UHGV virus genome: UHGV-0098804
Direction: 5' to 3' (one strand)
DNA from: a virus
Length of the DNA: 31,623 nt
In this document: in pieces, positions 24,161-29,296 of the stretch
Layout of the letters: the number at the start of each line of letters is the position of its first letter
Numbering within the stretch: the first letter of the stretch is position 1
The notes under the pieces: generated by a model
What the model was told of the DNA's origin: nothing
Databases searched by the model: none
The model's input: only the letters and a program-made list of their open reading frames with translations
Program-made: the position numbers and the translations under genes

Positions 24161-24322
24161 AAGCATCCTCAAAGGTCGATCTGTCAGGTATCGAAAGGAA
24201 GATTTTCGGGAGATTGTGATTTTGGATGAAGGAGGGGGAATCCATAAAGTGCACTTGCGCACAGTGCAACAGTGCGCTATAGTTATGGCATTCGGTAATC
24301 ATCACGGAGGATCAAATGACTA

Positions 24323-24625
24323 ATGACCAAAAAAATTAACATAAAGGATTTCAGGGATGCGTGGCTTGATGATTTTTTTGAATTTTCAACACCACATAGA
24401 AAGATACCTCCTGATATTCATATGACATTGTCACGGAAGTTGGACATTATCAATGCCGCAACTACCTGTAAGGATTTAAGATCACCACCAGGTAATCGGT
24501 ATGAGGAACTGTCAGGGAAGCTAAATGGCTATTCATCAGTAAGGGTGAATAAGCAATATAGGTTAATTTTTAAGTGGGTTAACGGAAAGGCCGAGGACTT
24601 GTATCTCGACCCTCACAAATACTAA
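24323..24625 (+). CDS. higB: HigB-like toxin (RelE/ParE superfamily, plasmid-killer type)
   Basis: C-terminal LRSPPGNRYEELSGKLNGYSSVRVNKQYRLIFKW...DLYLDPHKY matches the recalled HigB toxin pattern (PPGNRLE...SIRIN.QWRICF...DYH); toxin-first gene order; GGAGG at 24305. Confidence 0.75.
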   Translation: MTKKINIKDFRDAWLDDFFEFSTPHRKIPPDIHMTLSRKLDIINAATTCKDLRSPPGNRYEELSGKLNGYSSVRVNKQYRLIFKWVNGKAEDLYLDPHKY

Positions 24626-24695
24626 AACAGATACCCGGTTACGGACCGGGTTCTGACCAGAGTCCACTTAATACGCACGCTAGTAAGGGCAAAAA

Positions 24696-25034
24696 ATGAA
24701 ACAGGCAACCAGAAAACCGACGACCGTAGGTGATATCCTTCTGTACGAATACCTGGAGCCGTTAGAGCTGAAGATCAACGAGTTAGCAGAAATACTTCAT
24801 GTTCATCGTAACACCGTAAGTGCTCTTGTTAATAATAATCGTAAGCTAACGATGGATATGGCATATCGCCTGGCAAAAGCATTCGATACTTCTGTAGATT
24901 TTTGGATTAATCTTCAGACCGCAGTAGATCTGTGGGAAGTCGAAAATGATATGCGCGTTCAGGAAGAGTTAAGTCGTATCAATACTGCTGAAAAATTTAT
25001 TTCTCAGCGGAACCTGAATAAAAAAGCAGCCTGA
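24696..25034 (+). CDS. higA: HigA-like antitoxin (XRE-type HTH)
   Basis: HTH region LAEILHVHRNTVSALVNNNRKLTMDMAYRLAKAFDTSVDFWINLQTAVDLW matches the HigA antidote pattern; immediately downstream of higB. Confidence 0.8.
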   Translation: MKQATRKPTTVGDILLYEYLEPLELKINELAEILHVHRNTVSALVNNNRKLTMDMAYRLAKAFDTSVDFWINLQTAVDLWEVENDMRVQEELSRINTAEKFISQRNLNKKAA

Positions 25035-26041: not shown

Positions 26042-26074
26042 AAGCCCAGCATAAACTACTAGGCTATGTGTGGT

Positions 26075-27268
26075 TTATGCTTTTTTCACGTACTCTATAA
26101 ACATCTTCTCAGCCTGTTCTTGTGGCGTTCCAGCCATGACAAGCGCATCAATGAACGCCTGCTTCTTCAGTGCGAACTGATCGGCAAGGCGTTGCTGAAG
26201 TTCCTTATTTTTCTGTTTCTCACGTTGCAAGGCCGCTTCTTTTGCAGCCGCCCGTTTTTTCTGTGCGTCTGACAACTTTCTGGCCCTGGTCAATTGGTCA
26301 CGTAGCTTGTCGATCTTGCCGTTGTCCTTTGCCAGTTTTGTACTTAAAGCTGCCTGGCGCTTCTGATAGAGCCTCCATTCGCGCTTGGCAGCGTCAACGT
26401 TTGTTTTACTGTTGCGATTGCGATTAAACTCCCTCTCGTCTTCTTTTGAGAAGTGTTTGGTTGTACGGCGGCGATCGTCACCAAATGCAATTTGCGTTGC
26501 GGCCTTTTGTAACGCACGAGCAATACTCATTTGCCAACTAGCGGACTGTAACCGCGTCATTGAGTGGATCACGTGTTTACAGGCGACGCCTTGTAGCTTA
26601 GGGTTACGAACTTTTGGATAGGCGTATTCTTTTGGCGGTGCCAGGGCAAAGTTACCCGCAGTAGCGATGTAACGATACCAGTATTGATGACGACCACAGT
26701 CACAATCGAAAGACACCCGCCCGGCGCACAGTGATTTAGTGATTTTCAGAGCTGATTTATCGTCTTCTGCGATGTCATCGACCATCTGATCCCATTCTTC
26801 AAAGCGTATCCGGACGATATGGTGCTGGTGGACGGATATATCCGATGCTTCTACGCGGATATTAATCACGTTGTGGCGAAGAGATACAGGTGTAGCTCTT
26901 TTGATACCAGATCCGTCATCCACGGCGTTATTTGCACGCTTAATATCGATTGCCTGGCTGGATGCCACCAGCTGGGCGTATGTGATGCCAGCCGTCTTGC
27001 TGTCATATTTTTCGCGTGTTTTACTCCGTAGCTTTTCGAAACCTTTCAGGTCGTCTCGCGTGAAGAACGTGCCGCCTTTTTTCTTCCCTAACTTGAGAAT
27101 ATCTTCGGCGGATTTGTTCCTCAGTCTACCTGGCGTCAGCGTCCGGTGAGCTTGTCGGCGCTTACGGGTTTGTTCTTTCCTGATAAGGTCGAATAAACGC
27201 GTGAAGTCCTTAGAGGACAGGCCGTCAGTGATATAGCGCCCGTCCTGGTTTTTCAGGAAATCAGGCAT
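26075..27268 (-). CDS. SWIM-zinc-finger-like protein with Lys/Arg/Glu-rich coiled-coil C-terminus (397 aa), function unknown
   Basis: Track ORF; GGAG SD; FDCDCGRHQYWY...CKHVIH fits a CxC...CxH SWIM-type finger; start overlaps the upstream ORF stop by 8 bp (ATGCCTGA). Confidence 0.6.
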   Translation of the reverse strand: MPDFLKNQDGRYITDGLSSKDFTRLFDLIRKEQTRKRRQAHRTLTPGRLRNKSAEDILKLGKKKGGTFFTRDDLKGFEKLRSKTREKYDSKTAGITYAQLVASSQAIDIKRANNAVDDGSGIKRATPVSLRHNVINIRVEASDISVHQHHIVRIRFEEWDQMVDDIAEDDKSALKITKSLCAGRVSFDCDCGRHQYWYRYIATAGNFALAPPKEYAYPKVRNPKLQGVACKHVIHSMTRLQSASWQMSIARALQKAATQIAFGDDRRRTTKHFSKEDEREFNRNRNSKTNVDAAKREWRLYQKRQAALSTKLAKDNGKIDKLRDQLTRARKLSDAQKKRAAAKEAALQREKQKNKELQQRLADQFALKKQAFIDALVMAGTPQEQAEKMFIEYVKKA

Positions 27269-27590: not shown

Positions 27591-27651
27591 AACAAAGCCC
27601 CTCAGTCATAACCTGGGGAAAACTGTATGCAGGGTGTGAAATGCGAGAAAG

Positions 27652-27677
27652 CAGCGTCACCAGGCCTGGTGACGCTG
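27652..27677. promoter_or_regulatory. Perfect 26-bp palindrome (cagcgtcaccagg|cctggtgacgctg) just downstream of higA-2: terminator or operator
   Basis: Seen in sequence; on the minus strand it is followed by a T-rich stretch (ctttctcgcattt). Confidence 0.45.
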
Positions 27678-27682
27678 TGAAA

Positions 27683-27976
27683 TTATGCGTGGAAAAATAA
27701 TGGACGGATGTTTGGGCGAGTGGTTTGCGAAGCAACCCAAAGCTCATACTGGGATTGCATACCGGTCCACATTTCGGCACTGGTTCCAAGAGCGGACTCC
27801 AGACGAAGTGCCATATCAGCAGATATACCTGCTTTTTCATTCAGAATTCGGGAAAGCGCCGTGCGAGTAATGCCTAATGCCGCAGCGGCGTCTGTGACTG
27901 ACATGTCTCCCAAATATTCACGAAGAACCGCGCCTGGATGCGCGGGATTATGCATACGACTCATAGTGTTCCTCAA
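27683..27976 (-). CDS. higA: HigA-like antitoxin (second copy, XRE HTH)
   Basis: [18 protein letters not shown]...[38 protein letters not shown] is the canonical HigA pattern; 4-bp overlap with the upstream toxin gene. Confidence 0.8.
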
Positions 27977-28254
27977 TGATAATCCTGATAGTCAACTAGA
28001 ATTGCGTCTTCTCCTTCAAATCGGAAGGTAAGTCGCCAGTTACCGTTTACCGATATTGCCCAGTGACCTTTAAGGTCCGCCCCCTTTAGAGGGTGCAATT
28101 CCCATCCAGGCGCAGACATATCGTCCGGGCGTTTAGCTGTATTAAGCGCAGTCAATTGAATGCGTAGCTTAACCGCATGTTTGGCCTGAATGCCTGCGGT
28201 TGAACCTGTCTTGAAAAAGCGTTCAAGCCCTTTATGGCGAAATGACTTAATCAA
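27973..28254 (-). CDS. higB: HigB/RelE-like toxin (second copy); probable TTG start giving [14 protein letters not shown]...
   Basis: [13 protein letters not shown]...[43 protein letters not shown] matches the HigB/RelE toxin pattern. Track ATG at 28317 adds 21 atypical residues; a TTG at 28254 with GGA upstream restores the conserved N-terminus. Start uncertain. Confidence 0.7.
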
Positions 28255-28590
28255 AATAATTCCATTCGTGCGTGCAACCTGTGTATATACGCTACACGCA
28301 GAAAGAGTAAAATGCAAGCACTATCCGTATAGACAGAGTTTTTTCGCCACCCTGGAATTTATTGACTGTCAACAAGTGACTTTCATTAATCTTAAGGCGT
28401 GGACCAGCTCGATAGTGAGCTGGGTGTTATTTACCGATCGAATGGATTCGAAAAGATGAATATTTTTAATAAGCTGATTGATTTATTGAATAAATTCATT
28501 AGTGCTTCTTTAACTCAGCAGGTATCCACGTCAGTGTTTTTGTTACTCTTCTACCTGGTATTGAGGGAGTTAACAAAGCTACTAATGTGA

Positions 28591-29244
28591 TCAAAGTATC
28601 ACGGTATCTTCATCAACTTCTTTCCCAGCCAGTGACTTTGGCTGGGAGGTGCCTGCTTTAACTTTTTCATGCCCAATAATGGACAGGAACGAAGCGAGTA
28701 TGCCTGTTTTTTGCTCTTTCTCGACTGTGCCGGTCATCTGCTCTACGTAATCTGCACTGGCAACGTTGTGGTATACGGTCGCGTAGCAACACAGGATCAT
28801 CAGAATATGCTCCGGCCTGATATCCTGCCAGTTCACCCTGTAGACTTCTTCTCCGTTACCGTTGTATTCGGTATCAACGATAGAGTCGGGGATTTCGAAA
28901 GCACCTTTGTTATTTTGCGGCAGGGATAATAGCTTCTGGAGTTTTAACTCTCTGTATCTTTCCATCCCGACGATGATTGCTGCTCTGCCATCGGCATGAC
29001 GGGTCTTGAGAGTCACCTGGCTTGCTCCGGTGCCAGCGGAGATCGTTGGCGTAATTTCGTCTACCAGTACCTTAAATTTGCTTTTCCGCAGGGCTGCTAT
29101 AGCTGGAGGAATTTTTTGCTTTTGCTCCAATGCTGACGCGGGAAGGGGTTTTACTTCGTTAATAATGAGAGCACCGTCTTTCAGTATTGCAGTGAGCATT
29201 TGAGGCTTGCTGGTGGTCAGGCTGAATATTGCGATCTTTTCCAT
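28591..29244 (-). CDS. Hypothetical protein (about 217 aa)
   Basis: Track ORF 28591..29286; GGAGGAAGG lies before the ATG at 29244 (MEKIAIF...), and the 14 codons upstream of it are read through terminator hairpin sequence. Confidence 0.5.
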   Translation of the reverse strand: MEKIAIFSLTTSKPQMLTAILKDGALIINEVKPLPASALEQKQKIPPAIAALRKSKFKVLVDEITPTISAGTGASQVTLKTRHADGRAAIIVGMERYRELKLQKLLSLPQNNKGAFEIPDSIVDTEYNGNGEEVYRVNWQDIRPEHILMILCCYATVYHNVASADYVEQMTGTVEKEQKTGILASFLSIIGHEKVKAGTSQPKSLAGKEVDEDTVIL

Positions 29245-29270: not shown

Positions 29271-29296
29271 CAAAAAAAGGCCGCACATGGCGGCCT
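29271..29296 (-). terminator. Intrinsic-terminator-like hairpin oriented for minus-strand transcripts, 5' of orf 28591..29244
   Basis: On the minus strand aggccgc catgt gcggcct is followed by TTTTTTT; no minus-strand gene is immediately upstream, so the role (insulator or relic) is unclear. Confidence 0.45.

What the first reader, a model, noticed from the sequence alone, without database searches (positions are those of the whole stretch)
27652..27677. Perfect 26-bp palindrome between higA-2 and the downstream coupled operon
cagcgtcaccaggcctggtgacgctg is a perfect palindrome, longer than a typical terminator stem. It could be an intrinsic terminator insulating the TA module or an operator that couples the downstream operon to HigA or another regulator. 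A second near-palindrome (ttgactgtcaa, about 28354) lies upstream of higB-2 where a HigA operator would be expected.
Basis: seen in the sequence. Interest (0 to 1): 0.4.

Follow-up and report, generated by a model that had tools for sequence, protein, structure and literature searches.

The report
Terminator-type hairpin ending a toxin-antitoxin insert
The 26-bp perfect palindrome is real, and it is most likely a transcript-ending hairpin that closes off a higBA toxin-antitoxin cassette inserted between two morphogenesis genes of a P1/D6-like phage-plasmid, which makes it a fairly ordinary insulating feature.

Summary
Window 27652-27677 is a perfect 13+13 palindrome, expected 5e-4 times by chance. 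As RNA it forms an 11-bp stem with a 4-nt loop (-19 kcal/mol).

The window is a D6-like P1-family phage-plasmid, and all genes here are on the minus strand: mat, higB, higA, palindrome, gene 26, gene 25. Phage D6 and most relatives lack higBA. Exactly 721 bp (27651-28371) replace 52 bp of D6 that form a different, imperfect hairpin at the same place. Both hairpins abut the same backbone tail, TTTCTCGCATTTC.

In six distinct alleles the 10-bp arms never vary, while 4 of 6 central bases and 16 of 69 flanking non-coding bases do. A more distant relative has a canonical terminator at this position. An IncF higBA homolog has an unrelated perfect hairpin at the same offset after higA.

Best reading: a terminator-type hairpin that insulates late genes 26/25 from the constitutively expressed TA cassette. 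It is probably leaky or conditional, because the U-tract is weak and genes 26/25 have no recognisable promoter of their own.

The HigA-operator idea is not supported. Ordinary; low interest.

The parts
27652..27677 (-). Perfect 26-bp palindrome. In RNA it forms an 11-bp stem with a GGCC loop. It lies 5 nt after the higA stop codon.
   Evidence: arms invariant across 6 alleles
27638..27651 (-). Pyrimidine/U-rich tail CTTTCTCGCATTTC immediately 3' of the hairpin on the transcribed strand. From 27650 downward it is backbone sequence, also present after the D6-type hairpin.
27683..27964 (-). higA antitoxin (93 aa, HTH_3 domain)
27973..28254 (-). higB toxin (93 aa, PF05015 HigB-like, TTG start)
28255..28320 (-). 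higBA promoter region, conserved with the IncF plasmid homolog (TTGCAT-17-TAGCGT). Contains the inverted repeat TGTGTA..TACAC at 28270-28288, the best HigA-operator candidate.
   Evidence: (homology ends near 28317-28320)
27651..28371 (-). The 721-bp segment (promoter, higB, higA, palindrome) that replaces 52 bp of phage D6
28362..28372 (.). It lies at the upstream junction of the insert and is not conserved as a palindrome.
28374..28392 (+). P1-type Lpa late-promoter match (-22 box AAGTGACTT, 4 nt, -10 TAATCT). It is backbone sequence and points towards the small ORF, away from higB.
28456..28590 (+). Small 44-aa hydrophobic ORF (the D6 orf77 equivalent), convergent with mat
28591..29244 (-). 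mat (maturation control) homolog, the first gene of the minus-strand unit
29278..29296 (-). Canonical terminator-like hairpin followed by T7, 34 nt before the mat ATG
   Evidence: equivalent site in L041
27261..27590 (-). Gene 26 homolog (baseplate), first gene downstream of the palindrome
26075..27268 (-). Gene 25 homolog (tail), overlapping gene 26 by 8 nt
26043..26065 (-). Terminator-like site that closes the minus-strand unit after gene 25

Best explanation
The palindrome encodes a strong RNA hairpin at the 3' end of the higBA transcript. It acts as a terminator-type barrier (an insulator) between the toxin-antitoxin cassette, which the plasmid prophage must express continuously, and the late morphogenesis genes 26 and 25 just downstream.

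It is not a new invention of this locus. The phage backbone has a hairpin at this point between mat and gene 26 in every D6-like relative examined. The higBA cassette sits immediately upstream of that point, and the perfect palindrome takes the place of the ancestral imperfect hairpin, using the same backbone U-rich tail.

The U-tract is weak and no promoter is recognisable between the hairpin and gene 26. The barrier is therefore most likely partial or conditional: enough to damp read-through from the weak, autoregulated higBA promoter in the lysogen, but passable during lytic growth by leakage or by antitermination. The hairpin may also protect the 3' end of the higBA mRNA from exonucleases.

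Shown here: the anatomy, the replacement, the position, and the conservation pattern.
Inferred: termination, leakiness, and the direction in which the locus evolved.
For: - Strand and position: all neighbouring genes are on the minus strand, and the hairpin starts 5 nt after the higA stop.
- Stability: -19 to -20 kcal/mol, z about -5.
- Tail: CTTTCTCGCATTTC follows the stem; the TransTermHP-style tail score is -2.97.
- Replacement: 721 bp (27651-28371) replace exactly the 52 bp that form the D6 hairpin. Both hairpins are followed by the same TTTCTCGCATTTC and share GTCACCAG/CTGGTG(A/G)C in their arms.
- Positional equivalence: relative L041 has a canonical terminator (AGGCCGCAttcTGCGGTCT followed by TTTT) between mat and gene 26, in a 59-bp spacer.
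- Conservation: 0 of 20 stem positions vary, against 4 of 6 loop and 16 of 69 flanking non-coding positions, across 6 distinct alleles (Fisher p = 0.001 and 0.018). The alleles reached through gene 26, with no condition on the palindrome, all have intact arms.
- Persistence: allele L039 replaced higB and everything upstream of it with another TA pair but kept higA, the palindrome and the gene 26 leader.
- Functional analogy: the IncF plasmid higBA homolog, whose homology stops at the higA stop codon, has an unrelated perfect 15-bp-stem hairpin 4 nt after its stop (-33.7 kcal/mol, tail TTGTTGGT).
- Exclusions: no Rfam family matches, and the palindrome is not a dispersed repeat.
Against: - The U-tract is poor (4 T in the first 8 nt), and the consensus terminator scan did not list the site.
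- Genes 26/25 are essential morphogenesis genes in P1 (PMC10695390), yet no sigma-70-like or Lpa-type promoter lies between the hairpin and gene 26. An efficient terminator here would silence them.
- The arms never change, so there is no covariation. The conservation pattern fits a dyad-symmetric protein site equally well.
- Only 22% of 78 environmental HigA-homolog loci have a significantly structured 60 nt after the stop codon, so a hairpin is not a general attribute of this TA family.
- No transcript data were available.
Confidence: 0.62

Rival explanations
1. The hairpin is only an mRNA 3'-end stabiliser or processing barrier. It does not stop RNA polymerase. It blocks 3'-to-5' exonucleases, so the higBA segment of a longer transcript (mat-higBA-26-25, or higBA-26-25) is stabilised separately from the late-gene segment.
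For: - Strong stem with a weak U-tract.
- Genes 26/25 appear to depend on read-through.
- Arms are conserved and the loop is free to vary.
Against: - Relative L041 has a bona fide terminator shape at the same position, which argues that termination is what is selected there.
- Without termination, the TA promoter would drive late genes in the lysogen.
Confidence: 0.15
2. The palindrome is a DNA operator for a dimeric regulator (HigA-2, the resident HigA-1, or a phage protein) that controls genes 26/25 or couples them to the TA module.
For: - Two invariant 10-bp arms flank a variable 6-bp centre, which is also the pattern expected of a dyad operator.
- The palindrome lies about 60 nt upstream of the gene 26 start.
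Against: - No promoter is recognisable nearby for it to control.
- The arms do not resemble the conserved inverted repeat of the higBA promoter, the asymmetric P1 C1 operators annotated in AF234172, or the Lpa box.
- The half-site does not recur as a regulatory motif; the extra one-mismatch copies are G-D-A codons inside ORFs.
- Relatives lacking higBA have a different hairpin at the same spot, and L041 has a plain terminator there.
Confidence: 0.08
3. The palindrome is a DNA-level recombination feature: either the site at which cargo is captured, or a scar of capture. One version is a hairpin or cruciform hotspot, or a recombinase core site with 10-bp arms and a 6-bp spacer. Another is a quasi-palindrome 'perfected' by template switching when higBA was inserted into the ancestral hairpin.
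For: - It sits exactly at the junction of the 721-bp replacement.
- It shares GTCACCAG/CTGGTGAC with the arms of the D6 hairpin.
- The same spacer has taken up different cargo: a second TA pair in L039 and an IS2-type element in L025.
Against: - No partner site lies at the other junction, where TTGACTGTCAA is unrelated.
- There is no associated recombinase.
- The palindrome is single-copy in the window.
- The L025 IS insertion is elsewhere in the spacer.
- At 26 bp it is too short for an integron attC site and it lacks a GTTRRRY core.
- A scar would not explain invariant arms next to a freely varying loop.
Confidence: 0.08

Closest known systems
Rho-independent (intrinsic) transcription terminators of enterobacteria and their phages
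   Same: A GC-rich perfect stem (11 bp, 4-nt loop, about -19 kcal/mol) lies a few nucleotides after a stop codon and is followed by a pyrimidine/U-rich stretch. It is positionally equivalent to a canonical terminator in a related phage-plasmid (L041).
   Different: The U-tract is interrupted (CUUUCUCGCAUUUC), so the site fails a simple consensus scan. Essential genes lie downstream with no visible promoter of their own, so full termination is unlikely.
Phage 'morons': autonomous promoter-gene-terminator cassettes inserted between conserved phage genes (the concept of Hendrix, Juhala and colleagues, cited from my own knowledge)
   Same: higBA, with its own promoter region and a 3' hairpin, sits between two conserved morphogenesis genes. 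It is absent from phage D6 and from most relatives. As a TA system it would be expressed from the prophage.
   Different: The 3' hairpin seems to reuse the position, the tail and part of the arm sequence of a resident backbone hairpin, so it may not have been imported whole. The insert shows no compositional contrast (GC 0.48 versus 0.48-0.49 in the flanks).
The 3' hairpin of the IncF-plasmid higBA homolog (pCFSAN004179G; CATTATAGGGGGGCC-agac-GGCCCCCCTATAATG)
   Same: Same TA family (about 90% DNA identity), and the same offset of 4-5 nt after the higA stop. It is also a perfect palindrome with a 4-nt loop and a moderate U-tail.
   Different: The sequence is unrelated and the stem is longer (15 bp). 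Homology between the two contexts ends at the stop codon.
The Lpa-dependent late promoters of P1 (9-bp inverted repeat AAGTNACTT at -22 plus a -10 element)
   Same: This is another palindromic regulatory element of the same phage family, and one copy lies 700 bp away in the same spacer (28374-28392).
   Different: The 26-bp palindrome has no AAGTNACTT box and no -10 at the right distance, so it is not a late promoter.

Membership tests
Intrinsic (Rho-independent) terminator | Stable GC-rich stem-loop in the transcript | tested here: met
   11-bp stem, 4-nt loop, -19.2 kcal/mol, z = -4.9
Intrinsic (Rho-independent) terminator | U-rich tract immediately 3' of the stem | tested here: inconclusive
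   The tail is CTTTCTCGCATTTC, with 4 T in the first 8 nt. The consensus scan did not call it. Tail score is -2.97, against -4.05 to -5.73 for neighbouring canonical terminators.
Intrinsic (Rho-independent) terminator | Located at the end of a transcription unit, on the transcribed strand | tested here: met
   It lies 5 nt after the higA stop on the minus strand. It occupies the same position as the terminator of L041.
Intrinsic (Rho-independent) terminator | Transcripts actually end there | not testable with these tools
   No transcript 3'-end data are available.
Phage moron (promoter-gene-terminator insert) | Present between two conserved phage genes and absent from close relatives | tested here: met
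   721 bp replace 52 bp of D6. 28 of the 32 D6-like IMG/VR loci (L013-L044) lack higA in the spacer.
Phage moron (promoter-gene-terminator insert) | Own promoter | tested here: inconclusive
   TTGCAT-17-TAGCGT, with an overlapping inverted repeat, is conserved with the IncF homolog. It did not pass the strict consensus scan.
Phage moron (promoter-gene-terminator insert) | Base composition different from the flanking phage genes | tested here: not met
   GC is 0.48 in the insert and 0.48-0.49 in mat and genes 26/25.
HigA operator | Inverted repeat overlapping the higBA promoter | tested here: not met
   The palindrome is downstream of higA. The promoter inverted repeat is TGTGTA..TACAC at 28270-28288, and its sequence is unrelated.
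P1 Lpa late promoter | 9-bp inverted repeat AAGTNACTT, then 4 nt, then a TAnnnT -10 | tested here: not met
   A PWM built from 6-8 annotated P1 late promoters gives no hit at the palindrome. The second-best window hit, and the only one in this region, is at 28374-28392 on the + strand.
Dispersed palindromic repeats (REP/BIME-like) | Many copies per genome or across genomes | tested here: not met
   The palindrome is single-copy in the window. The 3 IMG/VR hits are all the same locus type. The 13 hits in 596 Gb of genomes are sporadic and in unrelated taxa.
Integron attC site | 57-141 bp imperfect palindrome with RYYYAAC / GTTRRRY core sites at the 3' end of a cassette | tested here: not met
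   The palindrome is 26 bp long and contains no GTTRRRY (read directly from the sequence).
Site-specific recombinase core site (lox / dif / cix type) | A partner site and a cognate recombinase acting on it | tested here: not met
   No second copy occurs in the window, even with one mismatch per arm outside coding-bias hits. The other junction is unrelated.

The most novel reading that the evidence does not exclude
The palindrome is one of a series of conditional barriers in a unit organised as terminator, mat, hairpin, gene 26, gene 25, terminator. Late genes 26/25 have no promoter of their own and are expressed only when a phage-encoded antitermination activity lets polymerase pass. PMC10695390 says such an activity is suspected for P1 but has never been demonstrated. 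On this reading the TA cassette has lodged just upstream of such a barrier, and the locus would give a compact, testable handle on antitermination in the P1 family.
Probability: 0.12. Interest if true: 0.5.

Novelty: new member of a known kind. Interest (0 to 1): 0.17.

Why it matters
The finding matters little on its own. It is a tidy example of how an accessory TA cassette is kept transcriptionally separate from phage late genes in a phage-plasmid. It also marks the mat-gene 26 spacer of D6-like elements as a recurrent cargo site that has taken up higBA, a second TA pair and an IS element.

The more interesting by-product is architectural. Canonical terminators lie directly in front of mat and, in a relative, directly in front of gene 26, with no room for promoters. 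This fits the unproven idea that P1-family phages use antitermination, and it could be tested with simple reporter constructs.

Tried and rejected
- **Regulatory motif.** The half-site CAGCGTCACC with one mismatch occurs 9 times against 1.3 expected, and all 7 extra copies are on the + strand. Six of the seven lie in long minus-strand ORFs, and most read as G-D-A with common codons. This is coding bias.
- **Dispersed repeat or known RNA.** Rfam has no match. Pattern scans of IMG/VR and of 596 Gb of genomes found only this locus type plus 13 sporadic hits in unrelated taxa.
- **Late promoter.** The P1 late-promoter PWM does not hit the palindrome. It hits 28374-28392 on the other strand. I considered a shared bidirectional box, as in P1 LP26/LPpmgL. 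However, the minus-strand -10 is poor (ACAGTC here, CCAGTG in D6), and allele L039 lacks the box altogether.
- **General rule that this HigA family carries a 3' hairpin.** In 78 metagenomic loci only 22% have z < -2, and the downstream regions fold no better than a coding control. The test was not decisive because those sequences are GC-rich.
- **Covariation.** The palindrome arms are invariant, and the D6-type hairpin shows only one-sided changes or broken pairs. There is therefore no compensatory evidence for or against pairing.
- **Literature.** The P1 genome paper, the D6 genome paper and the mat-promoter paper are not held in the library. I took the P1 signals from the annotated GenBank record AF234172 instead.
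- **MAFFT placement of the left junction.** This was wrong. I corrected it with an exact-match walk.

Full report
**1. The observation**

Window 27652-27677 reads cagcgtcaccaggcctggtgacgctg and is its own reverse complement. The repeat finder lists it as 13-nt arms, 100% complementary, with no spacer. It is the longest perfect inverted repeat in the window. From base composition, 4.8e-4 such 26-mers are expected in 31.6 kb, and the next-longest perfect palindrome has 7-bp arms. As RNA it folds into an 11-bp stem with a GGCC loop at -19.2 kcal/mol, z = -4.9, and no shuffle folds as well.

**2. Context**

The region is 100% identical to E. coli plasmid p1_000837. It is about 97% identical, in two pieces, to phage D6, a P1-family phage-plasmid.

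All genes here are on the minus strand. In order of transcription they are:
- mat, 29244-28591
- higB, 28254-27973 (PF05015)
- higA, 27964-27683 (HTH_3 domain)
- the palindrome
- gene 26, 27590-27261
- gene 25, 27268-26075
- a terminator-like site at 26065-26043

The hairpin begins 5 nt after the higA stop and is followed on the transcribed strand by CTTTCTCGCATTTC.

**3. The empty site**

D6 and most relatives lack higBA. Their mat-26 spacer is 328-331 bp, against 1000 bp here. An exact-match walk shows that window 27651-28371 (721 bp) replaces 52 bp of D6: CAGACAGGCCACCAGTT...CACTGGTG.

Those 52 bp are themselves an imperfect hairpin. In the transcribed sense they read GTCACCAGTGAGGGGAT...ATCCCCCTGAACTGGTGGC. 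This hairpin sits at the same place as the palindrome and is followed by the same backbone TTTCTCGCATTTC. The two hairpins share GTCACCAG / CTGGTG(A/G)C.

A more distant relative, L041 (gene 26 protein 77% identical), has only a 59-bp spacer. It holds a canonical terminator, AGGCCGCAttcTGCGGTCT followed by TTTT.

A hairpin or terminator between mat and gene 26 is thus found in D6-like elements and in L041, in three unrelated sequence versions; the more distant L045 group has no spacer at all (section 7). The palindrome is the version found with higA.

**4. Conservation**

There are six distinct higA-bearing alleles: the window, four PLSDB plasmids at 89-97% identity, and IMG/VR contigs. All keep CAGCGTCACC / GGTGACGCTG unchanged. 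The central six bases read AGGCCT, AGGGCG, AGGACG, TGGCCT, GGGCCT or TTGCCT.

| Region | Variable positions |
|---|---|
| Stem | 0 of 20 |
| Loop | 4 of 6 |
| Flanking non-coding | 16 of 69 |

Fisher tests give p = 0.001 for stem against loop and p = 0.018 for stem against flank. The alleles reached through the gene 26 protein, with no condition on the palindrome, all have intact arms.

Because the arms never change, there is no covariation. The pattern fits a hairpin, but it would also fit a dyad protein site.

**5. Does the palindrome travel with higBA?**

It does not travel with higBA outside this phage lineage. In IncF plasmids and on chromosomes, the roughly 90%-identical higBA homology stops at the higA stop codon.

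The IncF copy nevertheless has an unrelated perfect hairpin 4 nt after its stop: a 15-bp stem at -33.7 kcal/mol with tail TTGTTGGT. That is a functional analogue at the same offset.

Across 78 environmental HigA homologs (59-74% identity), only 22% show a significantly structured 60 nt after the stop codon. A hairpin is therefore not a universal attribute of the family.

**6. What it is not**

- It is not a known RNA family.
- It is not a dispersed repeat. Three IMG/VR hits are all this locus type, and 13 hits in 596 Gb of genomes are scattered across unrelated taxa.
- Its half-site is not a recurring operator. The apparent + strand excess is mostly G-D-A codons in minus-strand ORFs.
- It is not a P1 late promoter. 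A PWM built from the late promoters annotated in AF234172 (-22 box AAGTGACTT, 4 nt, then a -10) does not hit it.

**7. How strong a terminator?**

The stem is strong but the tail is weak. The consensus scan did not list the site. A TransTermHP-style tail score is -2.97, against -4.05 to -5.73 for the canonical terminators before mat, after gene 25, and in L041.

No sigma-70-like or Lpa-type promoter lies between the hairpin and gene 26. Three further observations point the same way:
- In L041, gene 26 follows the terminator within about 20 nt.
- In still more distant relatives (L045), the mat-like ORF, gene 26 and gene 25 overlap as one operon.
- Both here and in L041, mat itself is preceded by a canonical terminator about 30 nt before its start.

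Genes 25 and 26 are listed as essential in P1 (PMC10695390). I therefore infer that polymerase must pass this hairpin during lytic growth, and that the hairpin is a partial or conditional barrier. PMC10695390 notes that P1 is suspected, but not shown, to encode antiterminators.

**8. Best explanation (confidence about 0.6)**

The palindrome is a terminator-type RNA hairpin that ends or attenuates higBA transcripts. It insulates late genes 26/25 from a cassette that must be expressed in the lysogen. It takes the place and the tail of the resident mat-26 hairpin. It may also stabilise the 3' end of the higBA mRNA.

The rivals are a stabiliser only (0.15), a protein operator (0.08), and a recombination site or scar (0.08).

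**9.

TTGACTGTCAA is at 28362-28372, not about 28354, and lies at the upstream junction of the insert.
- It is outside the segment shared with non-phage higBA homologs, which ends near 28317-28320.
- It reads TTGACAATCAA in two alleles, which breaks the symmetry.
- It is directly next to the backbone's P1-type late-promoter box AAGTGACTT-TCAT-TAATCT on the + strand (28374-28392). That box points to a small 44-aa ORF and away from higB.

The better HigA-operator candidate is the inverted repeat TGTGTA..TACAC at 28270-28288. It overlaps the putative -10 and is conserved with the IncF homolog.

**10. Verdict**

This is a real, non-random and selectively maintained hairpin with an ordinary most-likely function. 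It is a new member of a known kind, and interest is low (0.17). The most novel reading not excluded is that it is one element of an antitermination-controlled cascade in P1-family phages.

Noticed in passing
window 28374-28392 (+) and 28456-28590 (+): An exact P1-type Lpa late-promoter match (AAGTGACTT, 4 nt, TAATCT) drives a small 44-aa hydrophobic ORF (the D6 orf77 equivalent) that is convergent with mat and abuts its stop codon. The C-terminal half (FLLLFYLVLRELTKLLM) is conserved with D6, while the N-terminal half has diverged. The ORF has no Pfam hit and its function is unknown.
   Followed up: partly
window 29278-29296 (-); L041 2242-2261 and 2962-2980: Canonical intrinsic terminators lie directly in front of mat, here and in L041. 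In L041 one also lies directly in front of gene 26. None leaves room for a promoter. This terminator-mat-terminator-26-25 layout suggests read-through or antitermination control of the unit.
   Followed up: partly
L039 (= L012) spacer, 1122 bp between mat and gene 26: In this allele a different TA pair (a 115-aa toxin-like ORF and a 99-aa HTH antitoxin-like ORF, with its own repeat-rich promoter region) replaces higB, the late-promoter box and the small ORF. An orphan higA overlaps the 99-aa gene's stop and is still followed by the palindrome.
   Followed up: partly
L025 spacer, 1664 bp: An IS2-type element (IS3 family, 136-aa and 301-aa ORFs) is inserted at the start of the small ORF. The D6-type hairpin is untouched.
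   Followed up: yes
L004 (IncF plasmid pCFSAN004179G), about 1450-1485: A perfect 15-bp-stem palindrome, CATTATAGGGGGGCC-agac-GGCCCCCCTATAATG, lies 4 nt after the stop of the higA homolog. It is unrelated in sequence to the window's palindrome.
   Followed up: partly
window about 24322-25034 (+): A first RelE/ParE-family toxin and HigA-family antitoxin pair, the resident D6 higBA (the antitoxin is D6 orf71), lies 2.6 kb away. This plasmid type therefore carries two HigBA-like modules.
   Followed up: no
L077, L105, L073, L075 (metagenome contigs), within 60 nt after the higA-homolog stop: Several unrelated environmental contigs share nearly the same hairpin element downstream of higA (GGAATCCCACTCATCGCAAAGTACGCGATGAGTGGGGCACCCGG). 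It looks like a dispersed REP-like repeat of those organisms.
   Followed up: no
window 26075-27268 (-), gene 25 product: The gp25 homolog contains a CxC...CxH arrangement (FDCDCGRHQYWY...GVACKHVIH) that resembles a SWIM-type zinc finger. Pfam gave no hit at E <= 0.01.
   Followed up: no
window 27660-27669: The centre of the palindrome holds two adjacent Dcm sites (CCAGG, CCTGG) and a StuI site (AGGCCT). These are lost in some alleles, so they are probably incidental.
   Followed up: no
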